The notes under the pieces: model-generated
Told to the model about the DNA's origin: nothing
What the model saw: only the letters and a program-made list of their open reading frames with translations
Database searches by the model: none
Source: Escherichia coli
Lineage (GTDB): Bacteria > Pseudomonadota > Gammaproteobacteria > Enterobacterales > Enterobacteriaceae
Strand: one strand, 5' to 3'
NCBI RefSeq assembly: GCF_002854065.1
Contig: NZ_CP024147.1
Length of the DNA stretch: 64,000 bases
Translations under genes and position numbers: made by a program
Shown here: positions 1-42,200 of the stretch, piece after piece
Numbering within the stretch: position 1 is the first letter of the stretch
How the letters are laid out: the number at the start of each line of letters is the position of its first letter

Positions 1-695
1 ATCAGGGATTTTATTTCGCTGTTTTTCCAAGCGTCGGTGGTCGCCAGTTCGAAGCTGATAATATCGATCAGATGGAAGCGGTTGGGCGTTATTTAGGGCG
101 TATGCACCAGACGGGGCGCAAACAGCTTTTTATCCATCGCCCGACCATCGGTCTGAATGAATATCTCATTGAGCCACGCAAGCTGTTTGAGGACGCTACA
201 CTGATACCTTCCGGGTTGAAAGCGGCATTCCTGAAAGCGACAGATGAGCTGATCGCCGCCGTTACAGCACACTGGCGGGAAGATTTCACCGTTCTGCGGC
301 TACATGGAGACTGCCACGCCGGGAATATTCTCTGGCGCGATGGTCCAATGTTTGTTGATCTGGATGATGCACGTAATGGTCCAGCTATTCAGGATTTGTG
401 GATGTTGCTCAATGGCGATAAAGCCGAGCAGCGGATGCAACTGGAAACTATTATTGAAGCTTATGAAGAATTTAGCGAGTTCGACACCGCTGAAATCGGA
501 CTGATTGAACCTTTACGCGCCATGCGTTTGGTTTATTATCTTGCCTGGCTAATGCGGCGTTGGGCTGATCCCGCGTTCCCGAAAAATTTCCCGTGGTTAA
601 CCGGGGAAGATTACTGGCTACGACAGACGGCGACTTTTATAGAACAGGCAAAAGTTCTACAAGAACCCCCTTTGCAATTAACACCTATGTATTAA
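1..695 (+). CDS. srkA: Stress-response Ser/Thr kinase SrkA (YihE/RdoA), 5' end outside window
   Basis: ORF 72-695 translation matches YihE C-terminal region; frame is open to window start; lies immediately upstream of dsbA as in E. coli. Confidence 0.9.
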   Translation, partial: QGFYFAVFPSVGGRQFEADNIDQMEAVGRYLGRMHQTGRKQLFIHRPTIGLNEYLIEPRKLFEDATLIPSGLKAAFLKATDELIAAVTAHWREDFTVLRLHGDCHAGNILWRDGPMFVDLDDARNGPAIQDLWMLLNGDKAEQRMQLETIIEAYEEFSEFDTAEIGLIEPLRAMRLVYYLAWLMRRWADPAFPKNFPWLTGEDYWLRQTATFIEQAKVLQEPPLQLTPMY

Positions 696-711
696 TCGGA
701 GAGAGTAGATC

Positions 712-1338
712 ATGAAAAAGATTTGGCTGGCGCTGGCTGGTTTAGTTTTAGCGTTTAGCGCATCGGCGGCGCAGTATGAAGATGGTAAACAGTACACTAC
801 CCTGGAAAAACCGGTAGCTGGCGCGCCGCAAGTGCTGGAGTTTTTCTCTTTCTTCTGCCCGCACTGCTATCAGTTTGAAGAAGTTCTGCATATTTCTGAT
901 AATGTGAAGAAAAAACTGCCGGAAGGCGTGAAGATGACTAAATACCACGTCAACTTCATGGGTGGTGACCTGGGCAAAGATCTGACTCAGGCATGGGCTG
1001 TGGCGATGGCGCTGGGCGTGGAAGACAAAGTGACTGTTCCGCTGTTTGAAGGCGTACAGAAAACCCAGACCATTCGTTCTGCTTCTGATATCCGCGATGT
1101 ATTTATCAACGCAGGTATTAAAGGTGAAGAGTACGACGCGGCGTGGAACAGCTTCGTGGTGAAATCTCTGGTCGCTCAGCAGGAAAAAGCTGCAGCTGAC
1201 GTGCAATTGCGTGGTGTTCCGGCGATGTTTGTTAACGGTAAATATCAGCTGAATCCGCAGGGTATGGATACCAGCAATATGGATGTTTTTGTTCAGCAGT
1301 ATGCTGATACAGTGAAATATCTGTCCGAGAAAAAATAA
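712..1338 (+). CDS. dsbA: Periplasmic thiol:disulfide oxidoreductase DsbA
   Basis: 208-aa ORF with signal peptide and FCPHC active site; RBS GGAGAG upstream. Confidence 0.97.
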
Positions 1339-1356
1339 TTCAATGTAAATTACATA

Positions 1357-1388
1357 AAGCCCGTGAATATTCACGGGCTTTTTTTATT
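1357..1388 (+). terminator. Rho-independent terminator of dsbA
   Basis: GC hairpin aaagcccgtgaatattcacgggcttt followed by T-run. Confidence 0.8.
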
Positions 1389-1451
1389 ATTTAATAGGTG
1401 ATGCTGCCAACTTACTGATTTAGTGTATGATGGTGTTTTTGAGGTGCTCCA

Positions 1452-1727
1452 GTGGCTTCTGTTTCTATCAGCTGTCCCTCCTGTTCAGCTACTGACGGGG
1501 TGGTGCGTAACGGCAAAAGCACTGCCGGACATCAGCGCTATCTCTGCTCTCACTGCCGTAAAACATGGCAACTGCAGTTCACTTACACCGCTTCTCAACC
1601 CGGTACGCACCAGAAAATCATTGATATGGCCATGAATGGCGTTGGATGCCGGGCAACCGCCCGCATTATGGGCGTTGGCCTCAACACGATTTTCCGCCAT
1701 TTAAAAAACTCAGGCCGCAGTCGGTAA
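1452..1727 (+). CDS. insA: IS1 InsA (transposition repressor)
   Basis: 91-aa [19 protein letters not shown]... zinc-finger/HTH typical of InsA. Confidence 0.95.
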
Positions 1728-2149
1728 CCTCGCGCATACAGCCGGGCAGTGACGTCATCGTCTGCGCGGAAATGGACGAACAGTGGGGATACGTCGGGGC
1801 TAAATCGCGCCAGCGCTGGCTGTTTTACGCGTATGACAGGCTCCGGAAGACGGTTGTTGCGCACGTATTCGGTGAACGCACTATGGCGACGCTGGGGCGT
1901 CTTATGAGCCTGCTGTCACCCTTTGACGTGGTGATATGGATGACGGATGGCTGGCCGCTGTATGAATCCCGCCTGAAGGGAAAGCTGCACGTAATCAGCA
2001 AGCGATATACGCAGCGAATTGAGCGGCATAACCTGAATCTGAGGCAGCACCTGGCACGGCTGGGACGGAAGTCGCTGTCGTTCTCAAAATCGGTGGAGCT
2101 GCATGACAAAGTCATCGGGCATTATCTGAACATAAAACACTATCAATAA
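1646..2149 (+). CDS. insB: IS1 InsB (transposase catalytic part, expressed as InsAB' by -1 frameshift)
   Basis: 167-aa ORF in -1 frame relative to insA, overlapping its 3' end. Confidence 0.93.
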
Positions 2150-2164
2150 GTTGGAGTCATTACC

Positions 2165-2665
2165 GAGTTTTTCTCTTTCTTCTGCCCACACTGCTATCAG
2201 TTTGAAGAAGTTCTGCATATTTCTGATAATGTGAAGAAAAAACTGCCGGAAGGCGTGAAGATGACTAAATACCACGTCAACTTCATGGGTGGTGACCTGG
2301 GCAAAGATCTGACTCAGGCATGGGCTGTGGCGATGGCGCTGGGCGTGGAAGACAAAGTGACTGTTCCGCTGTTTGAAGGCGTACAGAAAACCCAGACCAT
2401 TCGTTCTGCTTCTGATATCCGCGATGTATTTATCAACGCAGGTATTAAAGGTGAAGAGTACGACGCGGCGTGGAACAGCTTCGTGGTGAAATCTCTGGTC
2501 GCTCAGCAGGAAAAAGCTGCAGCTGACGTGCAATTGCGTGGTGTTCCGGCGATGTTTGTTAACGGTAAATATCAGCTGAATCCGCAGGGTATGGATACCA
2601 GCAATATGGATGTTTTTGTTCAGCAGTATGCTGATACAGTGAAATATCTGTCCGAGAAAAAATAA
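2165..2665 (+). pseudogene. dsbA: Partial duplicate of dsbA (3' 501 nt, lacks start codon and signal peptide)
   Basis: Near-identical to window 838-1338 (one synonymous difference ccg/cca in CPHC codons); begins abruptly at IS1 right end. Confidence 0.9.
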
Positions 2666-2683
2666 TTCAATGTAAATTACATA

Positions 2684-2715
2684 AAGCCCGTGAATATTCA
2701 CGGGCTTTTTTTATT
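2684..2715 (+). terminator. Duplicated copy of dsbA terminator
   Basis: Same hairpin plus T-run as 1357-1388. Confidence 0.75.
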
Positions 2716-2819
2716 ATTTAATAAATATAAATACATTCTGATAATGCATCCTGCCGCTGGACATTATTTCAGCATAAGTGGATATTCAAAGTTTTGCTGT
2801 TTTATCAGGGAATATTTAT

Positions 2820-4250
2820 ATGATACGTAAGTCAGCTACAGGTGTTATTGTTGCGTTAGCCGTAATCTGGGGTGGTGGCACATGGTACACAGGTACGCAA
2901 ATTCAGCCTGGTGTCGAAAAATTTATTAAAGATTTTAACGATGCTAAAAAGAAAGGTGAACATGCCTACGATATGACGTTAAGTTATCAAAATTTTGACA
3001 AAGGCTTTTTTAATTCCCGTTTTCAAATGCAAATGACATTCGATAACGGTGCACCTGATCTCAATATCAAGCCAGGCCAGAAAGTTGTATTTGATGTGGA
3101 TGTTGAGCACGGTCCGTTGCCCATCACAATGTTAATGCATGGTAATGTCATCCCAGCACTGGCAGCGGCAAAAGTGAACTTAGTGAATAATGAACTGACA
3201 CAACCGCTATTTATCGCCGCGAAAAATAAATCGCCCGTGGAAGCGACATTGCGATTCGCGTTTGGTGGCTCATTCTCCACGACATTAGATGTTGCCCCTG
3301 CAGAGTATGGAAAATTCTCTTTTGGTGAAGGCCAGTTTACTTTTAATGGTGATGGTAGTTCATTGTCTAACCTGGATATTGAAGGCAAAGTCGAAGATAT
3401 TGTTCTGCAATTTTCACCAATGAACAAAGTAACGGCAAAAAGTTTTACCATTGATTCTCTGGCGCGATTAGAAGAAAAGAAATTTCCGGTTGGTGAAAGC
3501 GAGTCGAAATTTAATCAGATTAACATTATCAATCACGGGGAAGACGTTGCCCAAATCGATGCTTTCGTTGCAAAAACCAGGCTGGATCGCGTTAAAGACA
3601 AAGATTATATCAATGTCAATCTGACCTACGAACTTGATAAGTTAACAAAAGGGAATCAGCAACTCGGTAGTGGTGAGTGGTCATTGATTGCTGAATCTAT
3701 TGATCCCTCAGCAGTGCGCCAATTTATCATCCAGTATAACATTGCGATGCAGAAGCAGCTTGCTGCACACCCTGAATTAGCAAACGATGAAGTTGCTCTG
3801 CAAGAAGTGAATGCTGCATTGTTCAAAGAGTATTTACCGTTATTACAACAAAGTGAGCCGACCATTAAACAACCGGTAAGATGGAAGAACGCACTCGGCG
3901 AACTAAATGCCAATCTGGATATCAGTATTGCCGACCCAGCCAAATCTTCATCATCCACAAACAAAGATATCAAATCGCTCAATTTTGATGTGAAGTTACC
4001 GCTTAATGTCGTCACAGAAACCGCAAAACAGCTTAATTTATCTGAAGGAATGGATGCGGAAAAAGCGCAAAAGCAGGCTGATAAACAAATCAGCGGGATG
4101 ATGACATTAGGTCAGATGTTTCAGTTAATCACGATTGACAACAATACCGCCTCGCTGCAGCTGCGTTATACACCGGGTAAAGTTGTTTTTAACGGACAGG
4201 AGATGAGCGAAGAAGAATTTATGTCTCGTGCCGGACGTTTTGTTCATTAA
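2820..4250 (+). CDS. yihF: DUF945-family protein YihF
   Basis: Long ORF downstream of dsbA, N-terminal hydrophobic segment; start chosen at MIRKSATGV; position matches E. coli yihF. Confidence 0.85.
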   Translation: MIRKSATGVIVALAVIWGGGTWYTGTQIQPGVEKFIKDFNDAKKKGEHAYDMTLSYQNFDKGFFNSRFQMQMTFDNGAPDLNIKPGQKVVFDVDVEHGPLPITMLMHGNVIPALAAAKVNLVNNELTQPLFIAAKNKSPVEATLRFAFGGSFSTTLDVAPAEYGKFSFGEGQFTFNGDGSSLSNLDIEGKVEDIVLQFSPMNKVTAKSFTIDSLARLEEKKFPVGESESKFNQINIINHGEDVAQIDAFVAKTRLDRVKDKDYINVNLTYELDKLTKGNQQLGSGEWSLIAESIDPSAVRQFIIQYNIAMQKQLAAHPELANDEVALQEVNAALFKEYLPLLQQSEPTIKQPVRWKNALGELNANLDISIADPAKSSSSTNKDIKSLNFDVKLPLNVVTETAKQLNLSEGMDAEKAQKQADKQISGMMTLGQMFQLITIDNNTASLQLRYTPGKVVFNGQEMSEEEFMSRAGRFVH

Positions 4251-4290
4251 AATACTCACTCGCCTCTGCTCATTCAGAGGCGAGCAAAAT

Positions 4291-5223
4291 TTACTTGTCC
4301 TGCCGCTGTGATGACATCAACGACGTCAGAAGTCGGTCTTTTTCCTGCCACAATGAGTTCAGCCATTGCTGAAAATGGCGCTTAAAGCTTTTGTCATTGA
4401 TGTAGTCGCCATGTAACTCATCGGCAATAGGCTGTAAATCCACATGTACGACAATCCGCGTCAGTTTACCGCTTAACATATCGAAGAACGGCTGACGGTT
4501 ATTGTCCGGATAACACAACGTAACATTAAGCAGTTTATCGAATTGTTTACCCAGTACATTTAGCGCCATCGCAATGCCTGCCGCCTTTGGTGGCAACAAG
4601 TTTTGGAAAGTGGAGTGGGTTTGCTGATGTTTTTCTTGCGTGAAACGGGAGCCTTCAACGAAATTGACAATGGTGGTGGGATGCAGGCGAAACTTTTCAC
4701 AAGAACGCCGAGTGGTTTCAACATCTTTACCACGTCGCTCCGGATGACGTAATAAATAAGCGCGGGAATAACGCTTCATAAACGGCATATCCAGCGCCCA
4801 GCACGCCAGGCCAAGAAATGGCACCCAGGCCAGCTGTTGCTTGAGGAAATATTTATTCATCGGAATGTGCTTACGAAACAGCACGCACAGTACGACAATA
4901 TCTGCCCAACTACGGTGGTTACAAATAAGCAGATACCAGTTCTTCTTACTTAACCCTTCCAGCCCGTGAACTTCCCATTGCAGGTGTGGGTTCAGATGCA
5001 GTAATACCGCCAGACCTTCACACCAGCAATACATCATAAAATCACAAAAACGCGAAACCTTTCGCCAAATGACTGGCACAGGTAGCAATAGTTTTACAAT
5101 CCCGGCAATGATGATCGGGACGGAGCAAAAAATAGTGACCAAAATGGTCAATACGATACTCAGCAAAAGGGTTATCGCAGCGAGTATTCTCGTCATAATG
5201 AATTTATTCAAAAGGTTAGCCAT
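4291..5223 (-). CDS. yihG: Putative acyltransferase YihG (PlsC-like)
   Basis: ORF with N-terminal TM segments and NHRSWADIV acyltransferase motif; start chosen at MANLLNKF. Confidence 0.85.
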
Positions 5224-5586
5224 AGACAGTGCGCTAAAGAAGCGCAAGGCGCAGATTTTAGCAGAAAACGACCCAAATAACGGATGATCCTTAAGGAGAA
5301 AAATAATTCATATCTATCCACATTAGAAAAAATCCCATTATCTCAATTATTAGGGATGGCTTTATTTTTAACTGCATGAAAAACAAAGACAAACATCATG
5401 CTGTAAAAAGCATGATAATAAATTAAAAGCGATGTAAATAATTTATGCACAAAGTTATCCACATGACGATTTGCGAGCGATCCAGAAGATCTACAAAAGA
5501 TTTTCACGAAAAGCGGTGAAAAACTCATGTTTTTATCCTGTCTGTGGCATCCTTTACCCATAATCTGATAAACAGGCACGGACATT

Positions 5587-8373
5587 ATGGTTCAGATCCC
5601 CCAAAATCCACTTATCCTTGTAGATGGTTCATCTTATCTTTATCGCGCATATCACGCGTTTCCTCCGCTGACTAACAGCGCAGGCGAGCCGACCGGTGCG
5701 ATGTATGGTGTCCTCAACATGCTGCGCAGTCTGATCATGCAATATAAACCGACGCATGCAGCGGTGGTCTTTGACGCCAAGGGAAAAACCTTTCGTGATG
5801 AACTGTTTGAACATTACAAATCACATCGCCCGCCAATGCCGGACGATCTGCGTGCACAAATCGAACCCTTGCACGCGATGGTTAAAGCGATGGGACTGCC
5901 GCTGCTGGCGGTTTCTGGCGTAGAAGCGGACGACGTTATCGGTACTCTGGCGCGCGAAGCCGAAAAAGCCGGGCGTCCGGTGCTGATCAGCACTGGCGAT
6001 AAAGATATGGCGCAGCTGGTGACGCCAAATATTACGCTTATCAATACCATGACGAATACCATCCTCGGACCGGAAGAGGTGGTGAATAAGTACGGCGTGC
6101 CGCCAGAACTGATCATCGATTTCCTGGCGCTGATGGGTGACTCCTCTGATAACATTCCTGGCGTACCGGGCGTCGGTGAAAAAACCGCGCAGGCATTGCT
6201 GCAAGGTCTTGGCGGGCTGGATACGCTGTATGCCGAGCCAGAAAAAATTGCTGGGTTGAGCTTCCGTGGCGCGAAAACAATGGCAGCGAAGCTCGAGCAA
6301 AACAAAGAAGTTGCTTATCTCTCATACCAGCTGGCGACGATTAAAACCGACGTTGAACTGGAGCTGACCTGTGAACAACTGGAAGTGCAGCAACCGGCAG
6401 CGGAAGAGTTGTTGGGGCTGTTCAAAAAGTATGAGTTCAAACGCTGGACTGCTGATGTCGAAGCGGGCAAATGGTTACAGGCCAAAGGGGCAAAACCCGC
6501 CGCGAAGCCACAGGAAACCAGTGTTGCAGACGAAGCACCAGAAGTGACGGCAACGGTGATTTCTTATGACAACTACGTCACCATCCTTGATGAAGAAACA
6601 CTGAAAGCGTGGATTGCGAAGCTGGAAAAAGCGCCGGTATTTGCATTTGATACCGAAACCGACAGCCTTGATAACATCTCTGCTAACCTGGTCGGGCTTT
6701 CTTTTGCTATCGAGCCAGGCGTAGCGGCATATATTCCGGTTGCTCATGATTATCTTGATGCGCCCGATCAAATCTCTCGCGAGCGTGCACTCGAGTTGCT
6801 AAAACCGCTGCTGGAAGATGAAAAGGCGCTGAAGGTCGGGCAAAACCTGAAATACGATCGCGGTATTCTGGCGAATTACGGCATTGAGCTGCGTGGGATT
6901 GCGTTTGATACCATGCTGGAGTCCTACATTCTCAATAGCGTTGCTGGCCGTCACGATATGGACAGCCTCGCAGAACGTTGGTTGAAGCACAAAACCATCA
7001 CTTTTGAAGAGATTGCGGGTAAAGGCAAAAATCAACTGACCTTTAACCAGATTGCCCTCGAAGAGGCCGGACGTTACGCCGCCGAAGATGCAGATGTCAC
7101 CTTGCAGTTGCATCTGAAAATGTGGCCGGATCTGCAAAAACACAAAGGGCCGTTGAACGTCTTCGAGAATATCGAAATGCCGCTGGTGCCGGTGCTTTCA
7201 CGCATTGAACGTAACGGTGTGAAGATCGATCCGAAAGTGCTGCACAATCATTCTGAAGAGCTTACCTTGCGTCTGGCTGAGCTGGAAAAGAAAGCGCATG
7301 AAATTGCAGGTGAGGAATTTAACCTTTCTTCCACCAAGCAGTTACAAACCATTCTGTTTGAAAAACAGGGCATTAAACCGCTGAAGAAAACGCCGGGTGG
7401 CGCGCCGTCAACGTCGGAAGAGGTACTGGAAGAACTGGCGCTGGACTATCCGTTGCCAAAAGTGATTCTGGAGTATCGTGGTCTGGCGAAGCTGAAATCG
7501 ACCTACACCGACAAGCTGCCGCTGATGATCAACCCGAAAACCGGGCGTGTGCATACCTCTTATCACCAGGCAGTAACTGCAACGGGACGTTTATCGTCAA
7601 CCGATCCTAACCTGCAAAACATTCCGGTACGTAACGAAGAAGGTCGCCGTATCCGCCAGGCGTTTATTGCGCCAGAGGATTATGTGATTGTCTCAGCGGA
7701 CTACTCGCAGATTGAACTGCGCATTATGGCGCATCTCTCGCGTGACAAAGGCTTGCTGACCGCATTCGCGGAAGGAAAAGATATCCACCGGGCAACGGCG
7801 GCAGAAGTGTTTGGTTTGCCACTGGAAACCGTCACCAGCGAGCAACGCCGTAGCGCGAAAGCGATCAACTTTGGTCTGATTTATGGCATGAGTGCTTTCG
7901 GTCTGGCGCGGCAATTGAACATTCCACGTAAAGAAGCGCAGAAGTACATGGACCTTTACTTCGAACGCTACCCTGGCGTGCTGGAGTATATGGAACGCAC
8001 CCGTGCTCAGGCGAAAGAGCAGGGCTACGTTGAAACGCTGGACGGACGCCGTCTGTATCTGCCGGATATCAAATCCAGCAATGGTGCTCGTCGTGCAGCG
8101 GCTGAACGTGCAGCCATTAACGCGCCAATGCAGGGAACCGCCGCCGACATTATCAAACGGGCGATGATTGCCGTTGATGCGTGGTTACAGGCTGAGCAAC
8201 CGCGTGTACGTATGATCATGCAGGTACACGATGAACTGGTATTTGAAGTCCATAAAGATGATGTCGATGCCGTCGCGAAGCAGATTCATCAACTGATGGA
8301 AAACTGTACCCGTCTGGATGTGCCGTTGCTGGTGGAAGTGGGGAGTGGCGAAAACTGGGATCAGGCGCACTAA
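5587..8373 (+). CDS. polA: DNA polymerase I
   Basis: 928-aa ORF with 5'-3' exonuclease, 3'-5' exonuclease and polymerase motifs; DnaA-box-like ttatccaca in upstream region. Confidence 0.98.
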
Positions 8374-8520
8374 GATTCGCCTGAACATGCCCTTTTTTCG
8401 TAAGTAAGCAACATAAGCTGTCACGTTTTGTGATGGCTATTAGAAATTCCTATGCAACAACTGAAAAAAAATTACAAAAAGTGCTTTCTGAACTGAACAA
8501 AAAAGAGTAAAGTTAGTCGC

Positions 8521-8629
8521 GTAGGGTACAGAGGTAAGATGTTCTATCTTTCAGACCTTTTACTTCACGTAATCGGATTTGGCTGAATATTTTAGCCGCC
8601 CCAGTCAGTAATGACTGGGGCGTTTTTTA
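8521..8629 (+). ncRNA. spf: Spot 42 small RNA
   Basis: Sequence gtagggtacagaggtaagatgttctatctttcagacc...gccccagtcagtaatgactggggcgtttttta matches Spot 42 including its terminator. Confidence 0.93.
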
Positions 8630-8650
8630 TTGGGCGAAAGAAAAAATCCG

Positions 8651-8740
8651 CAATGCCTGATGCGCCATGTTTATCAGGCCAACGGTAGAATTGTAATCTA
8701 TTGAATTTACGGGCCGGATACGCCACATCCGGCACAAGCA
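8651..8740. repeat. REP (repetitive extragenic palindromic) elements
   Basis: gcctgatgcgc...cttatcaggcc and gccggata...catccggc palindromic units. Confidence 0.8.
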
Positions 8741-8754
8741 TTAAGGCAAGAAAA

Positions 8755-9387
8755 TTATTCGCCGTCCTGCGTTTCTTCTACAGGCTGCATCTCGCTAAAC
8801 CAGGTATCCAGTTTCTGCCGCAGCTTGTCCACGCCTTGTTTCTTCAGCGAAGAAAACGTTTCAACCTGCACATCACCGTTAAACGCCAGCACCGCTTCAC
8901 GCACCATATTCAATTGCGCTTTACGTGCGCTACTTGCCAGTTTGTCCGCTTTGGTCAGCAGTACCAACACGGCGATATTGCTGTCTACCGCCCACTCAAT
9001 CATCTGCTGATCCAAATCTTTCAGCGGATGGCGAATATCCATTAGCACTACCAGACCTTGTAGGCTCTGACGTTTTTCGAGGTACTCGCCGAGCGCGCGC
9101 TGCCATTTGCGCTTCATCTCTTCCGGGACTTCCGCATAACCGTACCCAGGCAAGTCAACCAGACGCTTGCCGTCAGCCACTTCAAACAGGTTGATAAGCT
9201 GGGTGCGTCCTGGGGTTTTTGAGGTACGAGCCAGGCTTTTCTGGTTAGTCAGCGTGTTCAGCGCGCTGGATTTACCTGCGTTGGAACGGCCTGCAAAAGC
9301 CACTTCAATTCCGGTATCGGAAGGTAGGTGGCGAATATCAGGCGCACTCATCACAAAATGCGTCTGTTGATAATTCAAATTAGTCAA
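8755..9387 (-). CDS. engB: Ribosome biogenesis GTPase EngB (YihA)
   Basis: 210-aa ORF with [10 protein letters not shown]-loop and G-domain motifs. Confidence 0.95.
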
Positions 9388-9657
9388 AGCGGTCGTCTCC
9401 GTCAGTCAAAGCTTTGTGGCGATTATACCTGAACCATAATAAAAGGCGGATTTTTCGGCGTGAGCGTTGTAAGTAAAAGCCATACGCTTTGTGAGACATT
9501 GCCGATAGTCTTTATGCGAAATAGCAGAGAAAATTCTGCGATGCATGTCAAATAAGCTATATAAATCAGTGAATTGCTTTTATATAAAACTCTGAAAATG
9601 TGCAAATACTGATGGCGGTTGATTGTTTGTTTAAAGCAAAGGCGTAAAGTAACACCC

Positions 9658-9900
9658 ATAGAGCGAGGACGCTAACAGGAACAATGACTCAGGATGAGGG
9701 TCAGGAGCGCCAGGAGGCGAAGACAGAGGATTGTCAGGAAGACAAACGTCCGGAGACGTAATTAAACGGAAATGGAATCAACACGGATTGTTCCGGCTAA
9801 TGGAAAAACAGGGTGTGTTGGCGGCCTGCAAGGATTGTAAGACCCGTTAAGGGTTATGAGTCAGGAAAAAAGGCGACAGAGTAATCTGTCGCCTTTTTTC
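9658..9900 (+). ncRNA. csrC: CsrC small RNA (CsrA-sequestering)
   Basis: About 245 nt with many GGA/AGGA motifs, ending in hairpin aaggcgacagagtaatctgtcgcc plus T-run; located between engB and yihI. Confidence 0.85.
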
Positions 9901-9968
9901 TTTGCTTGCTTTCTGTTAGATTCCGCCGCAAATCTATACTGAATAAAACGGCTAAAAGACGAACCATT

Positions 9969-10475
9969 ATGAAACCATCTTCACCATCACGCAGCAAAGG
10001 TCATGCAAAAGCGCGTCGCAAAACGCGCGAAGAGCTGAATCAGGAAGCTCGTGACCGCAAGCGTCAGAAAAAACGTCGTGGTCATGCGCCGGGCAGCCGC
10101 GCAGCGGGCGGTAACACCACGTCAGGCAGCAAAGGCCAGAACGCACCAAAAGATCCACGTATTGGCAGTAAAACCCCTATTCCATTGGGCGTGACTGAAA
10201 AAGTCACCAAACAGCACAAACCGAAGAGTGAGAAACCTATGCTTTCACCGCAGGCGGAGTTGGAATTACTGGAAACGGATGAGCGTCTGGATGCGCTGCT
10301 GGAACGTCTGGAAGCAGGCGAAACCCTGAGTGCCGAAGAGCAATCCTGGGTGGATGCTAAACTGGATCGTATTGATGAGTTGATGCAGAAACTCGGCCTC
10401 TCTTATGACGATGACGAAGAAGAGGAAGAAGACGAGAAGCAAGAAGACATGATGCGTCTGCTGCGGGGCAACTAA
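9969..10475 (+). CDS. yihI: Der GTPase-activating protein YihI
   Basis: Basic N-terminus [18 protein letters not shown], acidic C-terminus. Confidence 0.92.
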
Positions 10476-10663
10476 CGGATTGCCGCCGTGGGCCTTCCCG
10501 TTCTGCTGATAACCCTTCCGGTTATATGTTATCTGGTGTGGTTATTCGTTAAACTACAGCGGTTGTCGCGGCGACAAAAGTGGCTGCGCAACCGGCTGAT
10601 GACCCGAAACGGGCATCCGCCGGTACGCCGTAGCCGCCAGAGACGCCATCGGAAGGAGTGAGC

Positions 10664-12037
10664 ATGTCTGTACAGCAAATCGACTGGGATCTGGCCCTGA
10701 TCCAGAAATATAACTATTCCGGGCCACGATACACCTCGTACCCGACCGCGCTGGAGTTTTCAGAAGACTTCGGCGAACAGGCGTTTTTACAAGCCGTGGC
10801 GCGCTATCCTGAGCGTCCATTATCTCTCTACGTACATATCCCGTTCTGCCATAAGCTTTGTTACTTCTGCGGTTGCAATAAGATTGTTACTCGCCAGCAG
10901 CACAAGGCCGATCAGTATCTGGACGCGCTGGAGCAAGAAATCGTCCATCGTGCACCGCTGTTCGCCGGGCGTCACGTCAGCCAGCTGCACTGGGGCGGTG
11001 GAACGCCGACGTATCTGAATAAAGCGCAAATCAGCCGCCTGATGAAGCTGCTGCGCGAAAACTTCCAGTTCAATGCCGATGCGGAGATTTCGATCGAAGT
11101 CGATCCGCGGGAAATCGAACTGGATGTACTCGATCATTTACGCGCCGAAGGCTTTAATCGCCTGAGCATGGGCGTGCAGGACTTCAACAAAGAAGTGCAA
11201 CGTCTGGTTAACCGCGAGCAGGATGAAGAGTTCATCTTTGCACTGCTTAACCATGCGCGTGAGATTGGTTTTACCTCCACCAACATCGACCTGATTTACG
11301 GCCTGCCGAAACAGACGACGGAGAGTTTCGCCTTTACCCTGAAACGTGTGGCGGAGCTGAACCCCGATCGTCTGAGTGTCTTTAACTACGCGCATCTGCC
11401 GACCATTTTTGCTGCTCAGCGCAAAATCAAAGATGCTGACCTGCCGAGTCCGCAGCAAAAACTCGATATCCTGCAGGAAACCATCGCCTTCCTGACGCAA
11501 TCGGGCTATCAGTTTATCGGTATGGATCACTTTGCCCGTCCGGATGACGAGCTGGCAGTGGCCCAGCGTGAAGGCGTGCTGCATCGTAACTTCCAGGGCT
11601 ACACCACTCAGGGCGATACCGATCTGCTGGGGATGGGCGTTTCCGCTATCAGCATGATTGGCGACTGCTACGCGCAGAACCAGAAAGAGTTGAAGCAGTA
11701 CTATCAGCAAGTGGATGAACAAGGCAATGCGCTGTGGCGTGGTATTGCGCTAACGCGTGATGACTGTATTCGCCGCGATGTGATTAAGTCGCTCATCTGC
11801 AACTTCCGTCTGGATTACGCCCCTATTGAGAAACAGTGGGATTTGCACTTCGCTGATTACTTTGCGGAAGATCTCAAGCTGCTCGCCCCGTTAGCAAAAG
11901 ATGGGCTGGTGGATGTGGATGAGAAGGGAATACAGGTTACGGCGAAAGGTCGCTTGCTGATCCGCAACATTTGCATGTGCTTTGATACCTATCTGCGCCA
12001 GAAAGCGCGGATGCAGCAGTTCTCTCGGGTGATTTAA
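10664..12037 (+). CDS. hemN: Oxygen-independent coproporphyrinogen III oxidase (radical SAM)
   Basis: 457-aa ORF with CxxxCxxC radical-SAM motif (CHKLCYFCGC). Confidence 0.96.
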   Translation: MSVQQIDWDLALIQKYNYSGPRYTSYPTALEFSEDFGEQAFLQAVARYPERPLSLYVHIPFCHKLCYFCGCNKIVTRQQHKADQYLDALEQEIVHRAPLFAGRHVSQLHWGGGTPTYLNKAQISRLMKLLRENFQFNADAEISIEVDPREIELDVLDHLRAEGFNRLSMGVQDFNKEVQRLVNREQDEEFIFALLNHAREIGFTSTNIDLIYGLPKQTTESFAFTLKRVAELNPDRLSVFNYAHLPTIFAAQRKIKDADLPSPQQKLDILQETIAFLTQSGYQFIGMDHFARPDDELAVAQREGVLHRNFQGYTTQGDTDLLGMGVSAISMIGDCYAQNQKELKQYYQQVDEQGNALWRGIALTRDDCIRRDVIKSLICNFRLDYAPIEKQWDLHFADYFAEDLKLLAPLAKDGLVDVDEKGIQVTAKGRLLIRNICMCFDTYLRQKARMQQFSRVI

Positions 12038-12102
12038 ATAGTGAATGGCGCTTCGTTTACAAAGTAGAAAACGAAAGCGCCATCAATGTGCTGAGAACAA
12101 GA

Positions 12103-12200
12103 TTGCCTGATGCGCTACGCTTATCAGGCCTACAAAACCTGTTGAAAATATTGCTTTTGTAGACCGGATAAGGCGTTCACGCCGCATCCGGCATGAACAA
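12103..12200. repeat. REP elements
   Basis: Palindromic gcctgatgcgctacgcttatcaggcc / gccggataaggcg...catccggc units. Confidence 0.8.
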
Positions 12201-12226
12201 AGAGCACTTCATCAGCAATCTGAAAC

Positions 12227-12337
12227 TCAACTAAACAGCCCAATCATCGCGGCACACAGCACGGCAGCAACGGCAGTTTGCGGTGTGTGGCTGTCAACTG
12301 CGCCACTCGATACCAGATTAATTATTGATTCCAGCAT
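12227..12337 (-). CDS. yshB: Small membrane protein YshB (36 aa)
   Basis: Reverse-strand translation MLESIINLVSSGAVDSHTPQTAVAAVLCAAMIGLFS. Confidence 0.7.
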   Translation of the reverse strand: MLESIINLVSSGAVDSHTPQTAVAAVLCAAMIGLFS

Positions 12338-12448
12338 AATGACTCTCCCCGTTTTCCGGGCAAGATCATACTGAACTTATCGGAACAGTAAAGCGCAAAA
12401 TACCAGCAATTTGCGCTCAATAATCAATCTTTACACACAAGCCGTGAA

Positions 12449-13858
12449 TCACTCCATCCCTAACTCTTTTAACTTACGCGTCAGAGTGTTGCGGCCCCAG
12501 CCGAGTAGCCGCGCCGCTTCCTGTTTATGCCCCTGCGTATGTCGCAACGCGGTCGTCAGTAACGTCCGCTCCAGCTCTGGCTGCGCTTCGGAAAGCAGAT
12601 TTTGATGACCGGAACGTAGCGCCCGATCTGCCCACTGTGCTAACAGCGTTGCCCAACTGTCCGGTTGCATTTGCGAAGTACTCTCCGCAACCGTTGATTC
12701 AAACAGTTCACCGGGCAAATCCTGAATCAACACTTCCTGCCCGGCGGCCATCACTGTTAGCCAGCGACAGGTGTTTTCCAGCTGGCGTACGTTACCCGGC
12801 CACGCCAGACGCGTCAGAGCAGCTTCGGTTTCCGGATGCAGCAACTTCGCTTCTACGCCCAGTTCGTGCGCAGCAACCTGTAAAAAATGGCGTGCCAGGC
12901 GGGGAATATCTTCCCGACGCTCACGCAGTGGCGGCAGATGAACGCGGATAACGTTCAGGCGGTGGAACAGATCCTCACGGAACTTACCTTCCTGCACCCG
13001 CTGTTCGAGATTCTGGTGAGTGGCAGCGATAATCCGCACATCCACTTTCACCGGCGCATAGCCGCCAACGCGGTAAAACTGACCGTCTGCCAGCACGCGC
13101 AGCAAACGCGTCTGCACATCCAGCGGCATATCGCCAATTTCATCGAGAAATAATGTACCGCCATCAGCCTGTTCAAAACGCCCCTGACGAATGGTATTCG
13201 CGCCGGTAAACGCGCCTTTCTCGTGACCAAACAGTTCTGATTCGATCAAATCTTTTGGGATAGCTGCCATATTCAGCGCGATAAACGGCGCTTTGGCTCG
13301 CGGACTGTGGCGATGCAGGGCATGAGCGACCAGTTCTTTACCGGTACCGGATTCGCCGTTAATCAGCACGCTAATAGAAGAACGCGAAAGCCGACCGATA
13401 ATACGGAACACGTCCTGCATGGCTGGCGCTTCGCCGATGATATCGGTCGTTGGGCCGTTAAGCTGAACATTACGCGGCTGCTGCTGTTCCTGGTAATGAC
13501 TGATGGCGCGCTCAACCAGCGCCACGGCTTCGTCGATATCAAACGGTTTGGGCAGATAATCGAACGCCCCTTGTTGATAGGCGCTGACGGCAGCATCCAG
13601 ATCGGAATGTGCGGTCATAATGATGACCGGAAGCATCGGATGGCGCTGTTTAATCTGCTTGAGCAGCGCCAGCCCGTCCATTCCCGGCATACGGATATCT
13701 GAAAGCAGCACATCCGGCGTTTTGCTCGCCAGCGCCTCCAGTACCTCCGCGCCGTTCTCAAATGTCGTACAGGTTAAACCCGCTCCAGCGAGCGCACGTT
13801 CAAGCACCCAACGGATGGAACTATCGTCATCGACTACCCAGACTATCCCTCGTTGCAT
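12449..13858 (-). CDS. glnG: Nitrogen regulation response regulator NtrC (sigma-54 activator)
   Basis: Receiver domain, AAA+ sigma-54 interaction domain (GESGTGKE) and C-terminal HTH; start at [12 protein letters not shown]. Confidence 0.96.
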
Positions 13859-13869
13859 AAACGTCACCT

Positions 13870-14919
13870 TTATTTCCTGATAGGCAGGTAAACCGAGAAC
13901 TCGGTATGCCCTGGCCAACTGGTAAATTCAATTTTGCCTGAATGCTGATCAATCAAATTACGAGCGATGGATAAGCCAAGCCCGGTGCCACCTTCGCGGC
14001 CGCTGACCATCGGGTAAAACAGCGTATCCTGCAAATGAGGCGGAATGCCTGGCCCGTTATCTTCCACATCAATCCGCGCCGCCAGCCGGTAGCGCTCGCC
14101 GTGTAAGGTCAGTTGAAACGCGGTGCGGGTACGCAGAATGATTTCACCACCCTCCGGCCCCAGCGCCTGTAGCGCATTGCGCACAATATTCAGCAAGACC
14201 TGTTCAATTTGATCCGGGTCGTGCGCCAGTTCCGGCAGGCTGGGATCGTAATCACGAATCAACCGCACGTTGTCCGGCAGTTCCATCGACACCAGCGTTA
14301 CCACGCGTTCAGCTACTTTGTGAATACTTTCGGTCACGCGCGTACCGGGCAGCTGCGGCCCCAACAGACGGTCGACCAGATTTCGCAGCCGGTCCGCCTG
14401 TTCGATAATCACTTTGGTATATTCCAGTAGTGACGGGTCAGGTAATGCTTTGCTGAGTAGCTGCGCCGCGCCACGTAAACCGCCAAGCGGATTTTTAATC
14501 TCATGTGCCAGGCCGCGCACTAAATCACGGGCAGCAACCTGCTGGGCGTGCTGTAGCTGTTCCTGACTTAAGCGGCGCTGGTTATCCATCGGCGCCATCT
14601 CCAGCAGGATCATGCCGTCCGGCATACGCTGGGCCGTCACAGAAAGGATATGCGAGCGACCGTCGATCACCAGCGTCACTTCGTTATCGGTAAAACCTTG
14701 CCCCGCCTCCAGACTTTCTTGCATCAGCTCAATATTTAATGAGAAGTAGCTCAACAGTTCCGGTAACGGCGTACCAAACAATTTGCGGGAGCTTTGGGCG
14801 AGCAGTTGTTGCGCGGCGGGGTTGGCGTAATGGATCGCCAGGTTGTCATCGATTAACAAAATACTGTTAATCAGCGAGTTGAGGATCTGCCCAGCATCGG
14901 GCTGCGTGCCTGTTGCCAT
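13870..14919 (-). CDS. glnL: Nitrogen regulation sensor kinase NtrB
   Basis: 349-aa histidine kinase with H-box LAHEIKNPL. Confidence 0.96.
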
Positions 14920-15092
14920 AAAGCAGTCTCCTGAACAGGTTGCACCATTTTAGTGCATTATAGCTTTTTACGGATAAAAAGCGCGAAGCATCAGAGAATT
15001 GACGGAGAAAAAAGCCCATGCAGAGATGGGCTGAAAGTTTCCACGGCAACTAAATCCCGGCGTTGTTGCGCCGGGTAGTACAACTTCAACTA

Positions 15093-16502
15093 TTAGACGC
15101 TGTAGTACAGCTCAAACTCTACCGGATGCGGAGTCATACGCACGCGGTCATCTTCTTCGCGACGCAGAGCGATGTACGCATCGATCGCTTCATCCGTGAA
15201 CACGCCACCGGCTTTCAGGAACTCGCGGTCCAGATCCAGCTCGTTCAGTGCTTCTTCCAGAGAGCCTGCAACTTGTGGGATCTCTTTCGCTTCTTCTGGC
15301 GGCAGGTCATACAGGTTTTTGTCCATGGCTTCGCCCGGATGGATCTTGTTCTTGATGCCATCAAGACCGGCCATCAGCAGGGCAGCAAAGCACAGGTACG
15401 GGTTAGCCGCCGGGTCCGGGAAACGCACTTCGATACGACGCGCTTTCGGAGAAGAAACCACCGGAATACGGATAGACGCAGAACGGTTGCGTGCAGAGTA
15501 AGCCAGCATTACCGGTGCTTCGTAGCCCGGGACCAGACGCTTATAAGAGTTGGTGGTCGGGTTTGCCAGGGCGTTAATCGCTTTAGCGTGTTTGATTACG
15601 CCGCCAATGTAGTACAGCGCCTGCTCAGACAGACCTGCGTATTTGTCGCCTGCGAACAGGTTAACGCCGTTTTTAGACAGAGACATGTGGCAGTGCATAC
15701 CGGAGCCGTTATCACCGAACATCGGTTTTGGCATAAAGGTCGCGGTTTTACCGAAGCGGTGCGCTACGTTGTGCACAACATATTTGTAGATCTGAATTTC
15801 GTCAGCTTTTTTGGTCATGGTATTGAAGCGGGTAGCCACTTCGTTCTGACCAGCAGTCGCTACTTCGTGGTGATGGGCTTCAACCACCAGACCCATCTGT
15901 TCCATCACCAGACACATTTCAGAACGAATATCCTGAGCAGAGTCTACCGGCGGAACCGGGAAGTAACCGCCTTTCACTGCCGGACGGTGACCTTTGTTAC
16001 CACCTTCATATTGGGTGGAGGAGTTCCATGCGCCTTCGATATCGTCGATAGCAACATGAGAACCGGAGATAGATGATCCGAAACGGATGTCATCGAACAG
16101 GAAGAATTCAGGTTCTGGCCCGAACAGTACGGTGTCGGCAATGCCAGTAGAACGCAGGTAATCTTCAGCGCGCTTCGCGATGGAGCGCGGGTCACGGTCA
16201 TAGCCTTGCAGGGTGCCAGGTTCAAGGATGTCGCAACGGATAATCAGGGTGGAGTCGGCGAAGAACGGGTCAATCACTGCGGTGGATGCGTCTGGCATCA
16301 GCACCATGTCGGATTCGTTAATGCCTTTCCAGCCGCCAATCGAGGAGCCGTCAAACATTTTGCCTTCTTCGAAGAATTCAGCATTCACCTGATGAGCAGG
16401 GATAGTGACGTGCTGTTCTTTACCTTTGGTATCGGTGAAGCGCAAATCAACAAACTTCACTTCGTGCTCGTTCAGCATCGTCAGTACGTGTTCAGCGGAC
16501 AT
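15093..16502 (-). CDS. glnA: Glutamine synthetase
   Basis: 469-aa [28 protein letters not shown]-terminus and adenylylation-site region. Confidence 0.98.
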
Positions 16503-16582
16503 ACTTTAACTCTCCTGGATTGGTCATTGTCGTCGTGGTAACGAAATCTGCAATTATTTTGGCCGTGTCGCCGTAAAAAAGA

Positions 16583-16604
16583 TAAAGCGAAAACTGTGCC
16601 AACT
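16583..16604 (-). promoter_or_regulatory. glnAp2 sigma-54 promoter (-24 GG / -12 GC)
   Basis: Reverse strand reads TTGGCACAGTTTTCGCTTTATC, a sigma-54 -24/-12 consensus. Confidence 0.8.
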
Positions 16605-16654
16605 TTTAAATTGCCCCTAAAAGGCGTTATCATGCTTAACATCGTGCAAAAGGG

Positions 16655-16725
16655 CTGCACCATGATGTGAATGTTGCACCAATATAGTGCTTCAATGGAA
16701 ACATTAAGCACCATATTGGTGCAAT
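16655..16725. promoter_or_regulatory. NtrC enhancer sites upstream of glnA
   Basis: Repeated TGCACC-N-GGTGCA-like dyads (tgcaccatgatg, tgcaccaatatagtgc, agcaccatattggtgca). Confidence 0.75.
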
Positions 16726-16874
16726 GACCTTTGGATAACCCTTTTTATGCTCCGTGAAAGCGATCACAAAGGGACTCTGCAATACTTGTTTGCGGAGGAT
16801 GTTTGTGATCCTGTTTTGTAGTGCGATTAATCCGTGTACAATAACGCGCTATTTCTAATGCCTGAGGCAAAGTT

Positions 16875-18698: not shown

Positions 18699-18715
18699 TT
18701 TCGTTTTTTAGTCAT

Positions 18716-18748
18716 AAAAAACCTGCCAGCGATGGCAGGTTTTTTTTT
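18716..18748 (+). terminator. Rho-independent terminator of typA
   Basis: Hairpin acctgccagcgatggcaggt followed by T9. Confidence 0.8.
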
Positions 18749-18914
18749 GCCTGTCGTGAGCGCACACCAATGCGAGTATCTCCCTTATAAGTCTGTGGTT
18801 ACGTCAATAGAGAGCTTTGTCACAATTATCTGCAAAGTCATACGCCGTTAATTGCTTTCTTTTTTGGCGTAAGCGTAAGATGCTTCATCTGGTTTAAACC
18901 AAAAGGATTAAACA

Positions 18915-19550: not shown

Positions 19551-19605
19551 GGTGATGCTGCCAACTTACTGATTTAGTGTATGATGGTGTCTTTGAGGTG
19601 CTCCA

Positions 19606-19881
19606 GTGGCTTCTGTTTCTATCAGCTGTCCCTCCTGTTCAGCTACTGACGGGGTGGTGCGTAACGGCAAAAGCACTGCCGGACATCAGCGCTATCTCTG
19701 CTCTCACTGCCGTAAAACATGGCAACTGCAGTTCACTTACACCGCTTCTCAACCCGGTACGCACCAGAAAATCATTGATATGGCCATGAATGGCGTTGGA
19801 TGCCGGGCAACCGCCCGCATTATGGGCGTTGGCCTCAACACGATTTTCCGCCATTTAAAAAACTCAGGCCGCAGTCGGTAA
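19606..19881 (+). CDS. insA: IS1 InsA
   Basis: Identical 91-aa product. Confidence 0.95.
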
Positions 19882-20303
19882 CCTCGCGCATACAGCCGGG
19901 CAGTGACGTCATCGTCTGCGCGGAAATGGACGAACAGTGGGGATACGTCGGGGCTAAATCGCGCCAGCGCTGGCTGTTTTACGCGTATGACAGGCTCCGG
20001 AAGACGGTTGTTGCGCACGTATTCGGTGAACGCACTATGGCGACGCTGGGGCGTCTTATGAGCCTGCTGTCACCCTTTGACGTGGTGATATGGATGACGG
20101 ATGGCTGGCCGCTGTATGAATCCCGCCTGAAGGGAAAGCTGCACGTAATCAGCAAGCGATATACGCAGCGAATTGAGCGGCATAACCTGAATCTGAGGCA
20201 GCACCTGGCACGGCTGGGACGGAAGTCGCTGTCGTTCTCAAAATCGGTGGAGCTGCATGACAAAGTCATCGGGCATTATCTGAACATAAAACACTATCAA
20301 TAA
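19800..20303 (+). CDS. insB: IS1 InsB
   Basis: Identical 167-aa product. Confidence 0.93.
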
Positions 20304-20318
20304 GTTGGAGTCATTACC

Positions 20319-36993: not shown

Positions 36994-37008
36994 GGTAATG
37001 ACTCCAAC

Positions 37009-37706: not shown

Positions 37707-37761
37707 TGGAGCACCTCAAAAACACCATCATACACTAAATCAGTAAGTTGGCAGCATCACC

Positions 37762-40919: not shown

Positions 40920-40928
40920 GTTTGCTCC

Positions 40929-42195: not shown

Positions 42196-42200
42196 AGTGT

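What the first reader, a model, noticed from the sequence alone, without database searches (positions are those of the whole stretch)
838..2723. IS1-centred tandem duplication of the 3' part of dsbA
Window 838-1396 (dsbA codon ~43 through the terminator and ttatttaata) is repeated at 2165-2723 immediately after IS1 copy 1, giving the structure dsbA(full)-IS1-dsbA(3' 559 bp)-yihF. The two copies differ at a single synonymous position inside the CPHC active-site codons (ccg vs cca). IS1 has no target-site duplication here. The upstream dsbA remains intact and the downstream copy is a promoterless, start-less fragment. This is consistent with an IS1-mediated duplication or recombination rather than simple insertion; an assembly artefact is an alternative.
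Basis: seen in the sequence. Interest (0 to 1): 0.6.

Follow-up and report, generated by a model that had tools for sequence, protein, structure and literature searches.

The report
IS1-centred 559-bp tandem duplication in dsbA
A mobile element (IS1) sits between two direct copies of the last 559 bases of the dsbA region in an E. coli chromosome, a small natural example of the recently described "unflanked" IS1 duplication; it leaves both neighbouring genes intact and probably has no function.

Summary
Window 838-1396 and 2165-2723 are 559-bp direct repeats (558/559 identical), separated by a complete 768-bp IS1 at 1397-2164. The repeat boundaries coincide exactly with the IS1 termini. Two very close E. 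coli relatives (CUWW06, 100416) carry the empty site: one dsbA, no IS1. They have the CCG allele of copy 1, so the CCA in copy 2 is derived. An unrelated strain has an ordinary IS1 insertion at the same left junction, with the normal 9-bp duplication TATTTAATA. The right junction (IS1 end joined to dsbA codon 43) occurs in none of 5,426 complete E. coli genomes, the GTDB species representatives or the JGI metagenomes searched. The architecture matches the "unflanked" non-canonical IS-associated duplication of Yelin & Kishony (2026), which in E. coli was exclusively IS1. This copy is far shorter than their resolved events (6.3-401 kb), contains no whole gene and comes from a natural isolate. 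dsbA, its terminator and the yihF upstream region are all intact, so the event looks neutral and should revert without a scar by homologous recombination. The formation mechanism (two successive inter-sister replicative transpositions or one concerted event) is inferred, not shown. An assembly artefact is unlikely but cannot be excluded without reads. New member of a known kind; modest interest.

The parts
712..1338 (+). Intact dsbA (208 codons, signal peptide and CPHC present)
   Evidence: ORF. Window 1-1396 is 100% identical to relatives CUWW06 and 100416, where the gene is annotated dsbA WP_000725337.1.
838..1396 (+). Repeat copy 1: dsbA codons 43-208, stop, terminator, and intergenic DNA up to TATTTAATA. 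Carries the ancestral allele G at 861.
838..846 (+). Site S (GAGTTTTTC): the point inside dsbA to which the IS1 right end is joined in copy 2. It lies at the start of a locally AT-rich stretch.
   Evidence: Junction sequence; 40% GC at 840-899.
1356..1381 (+). dsbA intrinsic terminator hairpin followed by a T-run, copy 1
1388..1396 (+). Site T (TATTTAATA): the point to which the IS1 left end is joined. The same 9-mer is the ordinary TSD of an independent IS1A insertion in E. coli VTB97585v.
1397..2164 (+). Complete IS1 (768 bp) with insA (1452-1727), the insB' frame (1646-2149) and the A-run frameshift site near 1703
   Evidence: annotated in relatives as IS1-like element IS1B family.
2165..2723 (+). 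Repeat copy 2: a dsbA fragment (codons 43-208) lacking the start codon and signal peptide, plus a second copy of the terminator
2188..2188 (+). The only difference between the copies (A here, G at 861). Derived and synonymous (Pro50 CCG to CCA), 24 nt from the IS1 junction.
   Evidence: Both relatives have G. The A allele is in only 3 of 5,419 E. coli genomes.
2683..2708 (+). dsbA terminator hairpin, copy 2
2724..4250 (+). Unaltered native dsbA-yihF intergenic region (2724-2819) and yihF (2820-4250)
   Evidence: The sequence after 2723 is identical to the sequence after the single dsbA in the relatives. yihF coordinates were mapped.
19551..20318 (+). IS1 copy 2: the nearest ancestral IS1, in the same orientation, 16.8 kb downstream. 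Candidate donor in the two-step model.
   Evidence: It is shared with CUWW06 and 100416 at the same junctions. There is no IS1 within 50 kb upstream in CUWW06.

Best explanation
This is a genuine 'unflanked' IS1-associated tandem duplication. A natively single-copy 559-bp segment (dsbA codon 43 to just past the dsbA terminator) is present twice in direct order. One complete IS1 joins the end of copy 1 (site T, 1396) to the start of copy 2 (site S, 838), and there is no IS1 at either outer border. It arose in this strain's lineage after it split from its closest sequenced relatives. It was most likely made by IS1 transposase joining the two IS1 ends to two different positions on sister chromosomes. 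One route is two successive replicative transpositions starting from the ancestral IS1 16.8 kb downstream. The first target would be 838, giving a hemi-flanked 18.7-kb duplication. The second target would be 1396, and one product of that step is the 559-bp unflanked duplication. The other route is a single concerted event. Because unflanked borders keep the ancestral sequence, dsbA, its terminator and the yihF promoter region stay wild type. The extra dsbA piece is an inert pseudogene fragment. The structure is expected to be neutral, and to be unstable through RecA-dependent recombination between the 559-bp repeats, which would restore the ancestral sequence without a scar. The structure and its derived state are shown. 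The formation pathway, neutrality and instability are inferred.
For: The structure is exact to the base. The empty site in two relatives is identical over window 1-1396 and then continues directly into window 2724 onward, so the net gain is IS1 + 559 bp. Both junctions lie at the exact IS1 termini, with no microhomology to the displaced ancestral flank. Both target points are locally AT-rich, the reported IS1 preference (PMC5009759). Site T is independently used by an IS1A in an unrelated strain, with a normal 9-bp TSD. The architecture equals the 'unflanked' class: an internal IS joining two loci, no flanking IS, and ancestral borders intact. That class was exclusively IS1 in E. coli (PMC13423834). 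The two-step model needs an ancestral IS1 in the same orientation on one side, and copy 2 at 19551 (+) meets this. IS1 tends to hop locally (PMC5009759). IS1 is active in this lineage, which shows an IS1-bracketed inversion and IS1-adjacent deletions that differ between relatives. All four IS1 copies in the window are fully resolved, so the assembly presumably used reads longer than the 2-kb structure (inference).
Against: No reads are available, so copy number and junction support are untested. The right junction was found in no other genome or metagenome, so there is no independent confirmation. The 559-bp amplicon holds no complete gene, so nothing obvious would select the unstable 18.7-kb intermediate that the two-step route requires. 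IS1 copy 1 differs from the proposed donor, copy 2, at one base (IS position 41). That base is private to this strain's copy 2 and may have changed later. One private SNP in 2 x 559 bp is somewhat more than expected: about 0.1, estimated from 2 private substitutions in about 21 kb of flanking unique sequence.
Confidence: 0.8

Rival explanations
1. Two independent ordinary IS1 insertions, one at 1396 and one inside dsbA at 838, occurred on different chromosome copies. Unequal homologous recombination between the two IS1 copies then produced A-B-IS1-B-C.
For: It predicts exactly the observed junctions and repeat limits: the repeat would run from the first base of the TSD at 838 to the last base of the TSD at 1396. 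Site T is a proven IS1 insertion site.
Against: It needs two rare insertions 559 bp apart to sit on different sister chromosomes in the same cell, one of them a dsbA knockout. If both were on one chromosome, the product would keep flanking IS1 copies, and none is present. No genome with IS1 at 838 was found among 5,426. Yelin & Kishony argue against excision or flanked origins for unflanked events.
Confidence: 0.06
2. A tandem duplication or a double-strand break formed first by a transposase-independent route, and an IS1 copy was captured at the break or junction. This is the DNA-break insertion hypothesis of Ngan et al. 2024.
For: IS elements at the centre of duplications without a TSD have been seen de novo and interpreted this way (PMC11708052).
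Against: Both junctions use the exact IS1 termini and AT-rich IS1-type targets. One of them is a site where IS1 inserts canonically in another strain. There is no microhomology or filler at the junctions. Random breaks would not be expected to coincide with an IS1 insertion site used canonically in another strain.
Confidence: 0.05
3. Assembly artefact. The culture was a mixture, with some cells carrying IS1 at 1396 and others IS1 at 838, or the assembler mis-traversed a repeat graph, so no single molecule has the assembled order.
For: The right junction is unique to this window. A graph path A-B-IS1-B-C uses only junctions that such a mixture would supply. The lone SNP could belong to one subpopulation or be a polishing error.
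Against: An assembler cannot invent an exact IS1-terminus/dsbA-codon-43 junction, so an IS1 end abutting 838 must exist in the reads. The mixture scenario needs two independent insertions 559 bp apart at high frequency in one culture. Four identical or near-identical IS1 copies are resolved in this window, which implies reads much longer than the 2-kb structure, and such reads would phase it directly (inference). The structure matches a class validated by ultra-long reads (PMC13423834).
Confidence: 0.07

Closest known systems
Unflanked non-canonical IS-associated amplification/duplication (Yelin & Kishony, Nat Microbiol 2026, PMC13423834)
   Same: Tandem direct copies of a natively single-copy region are separated by one complete IS whose two ends join two different chromosomal loci. 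No IS sits at either outer border, and the ancestral border sequences are intact, so a border can lie inside a gene without disrupting it. The IS is IS1, as in all their E. coli unflanked events.
   Different: Their resolved unflanked amplicons span 6.3-401 kb (median 26 kb), usually at high copy number and carrying genes under selection in laboratory evolution. This one is 559 bp, has two copies in the assembly, contains no complete gene and comes from a natural isolate lineage. Short IS1 candidates of 123, 400 and 1,434 bp appear only in their 'unresolved' list.
Ordinary IS1 transposition with an 8-9-bp target-site duplication
   Same: Same element, the same exact termini, the same AT-rich target preference, and even the same left junction as the simple IS1A insertion in E. 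coli VTB97585v (PMC5009759).
   Different: The direct repeat flanking the element is 559 bp rather than 9 bp. The right end is joined 559 bp upstream of where a simple insertion would put it.
[quoted passage not shown]
   Same: [quoted passage not shown]
   Different: [quoted passage not shown] The authors favour insertion into DNA breaks, whereas here both junctions look like IS1-chosen targets.
Canonical IS-flanked duplication by homologous recombination between two IS copies
   Same: A tandem duplication with an IS at the internal junction.
   Different: The canonical form keeps IS copies on both outer borders. Here neither border has one.
Insertion with long target duplication (restriction-modification units; Furuta, Abe & Kobayashi, NAR 2010, PMC2853133)
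   Same: Inserted DNA is flanked by a long direct duplication (more than 30 bp) of a target that is single-copy in a related genome.
   Different: That class was defined for restriction-modification gene units without other mobile elements, mostly in naturally competent species. Here the insert is a transposase-encoding IS.

Membership tests
Unflanked IS-associated duplication (Yelin & Kishony 2026) | A region that is single-copy in the ancestor is present as tandem direct copies | tested here: met
   Two copies at 838-1396 and 2165-2723. Relatives CUWW06 and 100416 have one copy. The dsbA segment occurs once in nearly all of 5,419 genomes.
Unflanked IS-associated duplication (Yelin & Kishony 2026) | The copies are separated by a complete IS whose two ends join two non-colocalised loci (more than 30 bp apart) | tested here: met
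   The IS1 left end abuts 1396 and the right end abuts 838, giving a separation of 559 bp.
Unflanked IS-associated duplication (Yelin & Kishony 2026) | No IS at either outer border; ancestral amplicon-periamplicon junctions retained | tested here: met
   The 837/838 and 2723/2724 junctions are identical to the uninterrupted sequence of the relatives.
Unflanked IS-associated duplication (Yelin & Kishony 2026) | Copy number above 1.5 by read depth, or whole-array confirmation by long reads | not testable with these tools
   Only the assembled sequence is available. It shows two copies.
Unflanked IS-associated duplication (Yelin & Kishony 2026) | Formation by two successive inter-sister replicative transpositions (the proposed model, not a definition) | tested here: inconclusive
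   The prerequisite is met: an ancestral same-orientation IS1 lies 16.8 kb downstream. No intermediate was observed. The donor differs by 1 nt.
Simple IS1 insertion | An 8-9-bp direct target-site duplication immediately flanking both IS ends | tested here: not met
   The flanks are ...TATTTAATA | IS1 | GAGTTTTTC.... The simple insertion at the same site in VTB97585v does have the TATTTAATA TSD.
Canonical IS-flanked duplication | IS copies at both outer borders of the array as well as at the internal junction | tested here: not met
   There is no IS1 within window 1-837 or 2724-19550.
Hemi-flanked IS duplication | An IS copy at one outer border of the array | tested here: not met
   Same as above. 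A route from a simple insertion at 1396 would leave IS1 + TATTTAATA after copy 2, and this is absent.
Tandem inversion duplication | The middle copy is inverted relative to the outer copies | tested here: not met
   The two copies are direct, with no inverted dsbA copy. By contrast, L017 shows such a structure.
Insertion with long target duplication (RM units) | The insert carries restriction-modification genes and no other mobile element; target duplication longer than 30 bp | tested here: not met
   The duplication length criterion is met (559 bp), but the insert is an IS1 with insA/insB.

The most novel reading that the evidence does not exclude
The 559-bp repeat is in effect a giant target-site duplication made in one concerted IS1 transposition. 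In this reading the two IS1 ends were transferred to two positions 559 bp apart on sister chromosomes behind a replication fork, with no hemi-flanked intermediate. The argument is that this amplicon holds no complete gene, so nothing obvious would select the unstable 18.7-kb intermediate that the published two-step model requires. A short, unselected, natural example therefore favours a single event. If so, IS1 would routinely create scarless micro-duplications, including inside genes, that short-read pipelines leave unresolved.
Probability: 0.3. Interest if true: 0.55.

Novelty: new member of a known kind. Interest (0 to 1): 0.3.

Why it matters
How unflanked IS1 duplications form is still described as unclear (PMC13423834; PMC11708052). 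Published resolved cases come from laboratory evolution under selection and are at least 6.3 kb. This is a fully resolved 559-bp example in a natural gut or wastewater E. coli lineage. It has one border inside an intact gene and no selectable content. It shows that the process also runs at sub-kilobase scale without obvious selection, and it offers a compact substrate (about 2 kb, PCR-sized) for testing one-step against two-step models and for measuring scarless reversion. For annotation, it explains an IS1 'without a TSD' and a partial dsbA pseudogene next to an intact dsbA. It has no expected consequence for DsbA function.

Tried and rejected
1. I tried to find the source genome, or other carriers of the duplication.
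- Exact look-ups of the 144-aa and 134-aa ORFs of the dsbA fragment returned only frameshifted or ordinary dsbA loci, plus one unrelated palindromic dsbA structure.
- The right-junction sequence gave no hit in 5,426 complete E. coli genomes, the GTDB species representatives or the JGI metagenomes.
- The lineage-specific porin'-IS1 chimeric ORF is found only on contigs under 10 kb. The source assembly is therefore not in that index, and short-read contigs cannot show the duplication.

2. I considered a model in which a simple insertion at 1396 comes first, followed by inter-sister replicative transposition to 838. I rejected it because it predicts a second IS1 plus a second TATTTAATA after copy 2, and these are absent.

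3. I considered import of the CCA allele by recombination. The allele is very rare (3 of 5,419 genomes), and both relatives have CCG. A private change, a change linked to the event, or a consensus error all fit better.

4. I asked whether a single duplicative inversion explains IS1 copies 3 and 4. One pair of flanks shows the inverted 9-mer, but the other pair shares none, and frvB and frvX are missing. One step does not suffice.

5. I asked whether the fragment could be expressed. The insB stop codon (2147-2149) is in frame with the fragment, and only weak consensus promoter matches occur. The fragment lacks a start codon and the signal peptide, so I treat it as inert.

Full report
**Observation**

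The region was read directly and compared by script.
- Window 838-1396 and 2165-2723 are each 559 bp and differ at one position (861 G, 2188 A).
- The bases immediately outside the repeat differ on both sides, so the limits are unambiguous.
- The 768 bp between the copies (1397-2164) are a complete IS1 with the terminal sequences GGTGATGCTG...AGTCATTACC.
- This IS1 has an insA ORF (1452-1727) and the insB' frame (1646-2149).
- It is identical to the IS1 copies at 36994-37761 (-) and 39695-40462 (+), and differs by one base from the copy at 19551-20318 (+).
- dsbA is 712-1338 (208 codons).
- Position 838 is the first base of codon 43. Position 861 is the third base of Pro50 in the Cys-Pro-His-Cys motif, so the single difference is synonymous.
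- The repeat extends 58 bp past the stop codon and includes the dsbA terminator hairpin, which is therefore present twice (1356-1381 and 2683-2708).
- The IS1 has no 9-bp direct repeat at its ends. The 559-bp repeat takes that place.

**What the ancestral state was**

The 16.8 kb downstream of the structure match two complete E. coli chromosomes at 100.0% identity: CUWW06 (wastewater, Thailand) and 100416 (human stool, Gambia).
- In both, window 1-1396 is reproduced without a single difference.
- Both then continue directly into AATATAAATAC..., the sequence that follows copy 2 at 2724.
- These relatives therefore hold the empty site: one dsbA and no IS1. The window has gained exactly IS1 + 559 bp.
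- Both relatives have G at the polymorphic position, so the A at 2188 in copy 2 is derived.
- The A allele is present in only 3 of 5,419 complete E. coli genomes.
- Against both relatives the window has four private substitutions in about 21 kb: 2188, 12867, 19591 (inside IS1 copy 2) and 21095. The alleles at 12867 and 21095 occur in none of 5,426 genomes.
- From the two private changes in about 21 kb of unique sequence, roughly 0.1 private change is expected in 2 x 559 bp.
- The lone SNP is thus compatible with ordinary mutation since the event, but it is slightly surprising. A change linked to the event or a consensus error cannot be excluded.

**The two junctions**

The left junction (TATTTAATA | IS1 left end) occurs as one uninterrupted 101-nt match in one other genome, E. 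coli VTB97585v from a chicken.
- There an IS1A isoform (8 differences from this IS1) lies in the same orientation.
- That insertion has the ordinary 9-bp duplication TATTTAATA and no long repeat.
- Site T is therefore a real and independently used IS1 target. That strain shows what a simple insertion here looks like.

The right junction (IS1 right end | GAGTTTTTC, dsbA codon 43) was found in none of the collections searched.
- It is absent from all 5,426 complete E. coli genomes.
- It is absent from the GTDB species representatives.
- It is absent from the JGI metagenomes.

Both junctions use the exact IS1 termini and share no microhomology with the sequence they displace. Both targets lie in locally AT-rich DNA, the reported regional preference of IS1 (PMC5009759). 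These features point to transposase-made joints rather than illegitimate recombination.

**What it is**

The architecture is a natively single-copy segment in tandem, one complete IS joining the end of one copy to the start of the next, no IS at either outer border, and ancestral borders intact. This is the 'unflanked' non-canonical IS-associated duplication defined by Yelin & Kishony (PMC13423834).
- In their 106 E. coli events, the unflanked class (27 events) was exclusively IS1.
- They stress that unflanked borders can lie inside genes without disrupting them. That is the case here for dsbA.
- Their resolved unflanked amplicons range from 6,339 bp to 401 kb.
- IS1 candidates of 123, 400 and 1,434 bp appear only among their 'unresolved' structures.
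- Ngan et al. described an IS481 copy at the centre of a duplication, without a TSD, in Pseudomonas fluorescens (PMC11708052).

The present case is therefore a new, very short, natural-isolate member of a known kind.

**How it most likely formed (inferred)**

A simple insertion is excluded because there is no 9-bp TSD. Canonical IS-IS recombination is excluded because there are no flanking IS copies.

A simple insertion at 1396, followed by inter-sister replicative transposition to 838, is also rejected. It would leave a second IS1 and a second TATTTAATA after copy 2, and these are absent.

The published proposal is two successive inter-sister replicative transpositions.
- I worked this through for the present geometry. 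An ancestral IS1 downstream, in the same orientation, first attacks 838 on the sister chromosome. This gives a hemi-flanked duplication of 838-19550.
- The internal IS1 then attacks 1396 in the first amplicon copy of the sister. One product is exactly dsbA-[838-1396]-IS1-[838-1396]-yihF, with the ancestral IS1 left in place.
- The prerequisite is met. IS1 copy 2 at 19551 is on the + strand, like the new copy, and is shared with both relatives. No IS1 lies within 50 kb upstream in CUWW06.
- IS1 is also reported to hop locally.
- Against this route, the amplicon carries no whole gene, so nothing obvious would select the unstable 18.7-kb intermediate. In addition, copy 2 differs from the new copy at one base. 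That base is private to this strain and may have changed later.

A single concerted event, with the two IS1 ends transferred to sites 559 bp apart on sister chromosomes, fits the sequence equally well. It is the more novel reading.

Two further routes are less likely.
- Two independent insertions followed by unequal crossing-over would give the same sequence. They require an improbable coincidence and a dsbA-null partner chromosome.
- Capture of IS1 at a break (Ngan et al.) does not explain why both joints sit at IS1-type targets, one of which another strain uses canonically.

**Consequences (inferred)**

- dsbA with its promoters and terminator is unchanged.
- The native 96-bp dsbA-yihF spacer and yihF (2820-4250) are unchanged.
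- The second dsbA piece lacks a start codon and the signal peptide, and it sits behind the in-frame insB stop codon. Only weak consensus promoter matches occur.
- The event is best regarded as neutral.
- The 559-bp direct repeats should allow RecA-dependent loss of IS1 plus one copy, which would restore the ancestral sequence without a scar. Scarless contraction of this kind was shown for unflanked arrays.

**Artefact?**

No reads are available, so this cannot be settled here.
- An assembler cannot invent an exact IS1-terminus/dsbA-codon-43 junction, so that junction must exist in the data.
- The only artefact scenario left is a mixed culture with separate insertions at 838 and 1396 that were mis-joined.
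- That scenario needs two independent events 559 bp apart at high frequency in one culture.
- It also needs an assembly that failed to phase 2 kb while resolving four IS1 copies in this window.
- I put the artefact at about 7%.

**Verdict**

The structure is a small, probably neutral, unflanked IS1 duplication: a new member of a recently characterised kind. Its value is as a compact natural test case for how such duplications arise.

Noticed in passing
window 36994-40471: IS1 copies 3 (-) and 4 (+) bracket a 1.9-kb inverted segment holding the 5' 442 codons of a Porin_8 gene. The 9-mer next to the left end of copy 3 (atacgtccc) is the reverse complement of the 9-mer next to the right end of copy 4 (gggacgtat). 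One original insertion with TSD GGGACGTAT has therefore been split over two oppositely oriented IS1 copies by an IS1-mediated inversion. A Logan contig (L019) keeps the un-inverted order frvX-frvB-frvA-porin'-IS1. The other two flanks share no 9-mer, and frvB and frvX are missing, so a deletion is also involved.
   Followed up: partly
window 19551-20318, 24952-28202 and 37762-47921: IS1-adjacent deletions differ between this strain and its relatives. IS1 copy 2 replaces yihL'-to-yihN' DNA in all three strains. CUWW06 has an IS1 in place of window 24952-28202. CUWW06 has also lost window 37762-47921 (the rha region) next to the IS1 shared with copy 3. None of the four IS1 copies in the window has a 9-bp direct TSD.
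   Followed up: partly
L001 (E. coli VTB97585v, NZ_CP178711.1) 2551-3318: An IS1A isoform (8 differences) is inserted at exactly the same nucleotide and in the same orientation as the left junction here, with the normal 9-bp TSD TATTTAATA. In addition, 44 of 5,426 genomes have an IS1 somewhere in the dsbA-yihF neighbourhood, so this AT-rich spacer and yihF may be recurrent IS1 targets.
   Followed up: partly
L017 (GCA_002152015.1, NGRX01000001.1) 2041-3405: Another E. coli assembly carries a full dsbA, then an inverted partial copy, then a direct partial copy. It includes a 427-nt perfect palindrome with no spacer (2524-2950 / 2951-3377). This is either a tandem inversion duplication or a long-read (hairpin) assembly artefact. 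An IS1 also interrupts yihF there.
   Followed up: no
window 2147-2167: The insB stop codon TAA (2147-2149) is in the same reading frame as the dsbA fragment that starts at 2165 (TAA GTT GGA GTC ATT ACC GAG...). This is probably coincidence, but stop-codon read-through would give an InsB-DsbA' fusion.
   Followed up: no
window 41791-42196: A tandem array of 4.4 copies of a 92-bp unit made of REP-like palindromes (GCCGGATAAGGC...GCCTGATGCGACGC), that is, a BIME-type array next to rhaD. It looks ordinary for E. coli.
   Followed up: no
window 37735-39063 (-): The chimeric 442-aa porin'-IS1 ORF (its tail GDAANLLI is encoded by the IS1 left end) is recorded in 72 blocks of the public contig index. 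These include human gut metagenomes from several projects, always on contigs under 10 kb. This IS1-rich lineage therefore seems common in the human gut but is rarely finished.
   Followed up: no
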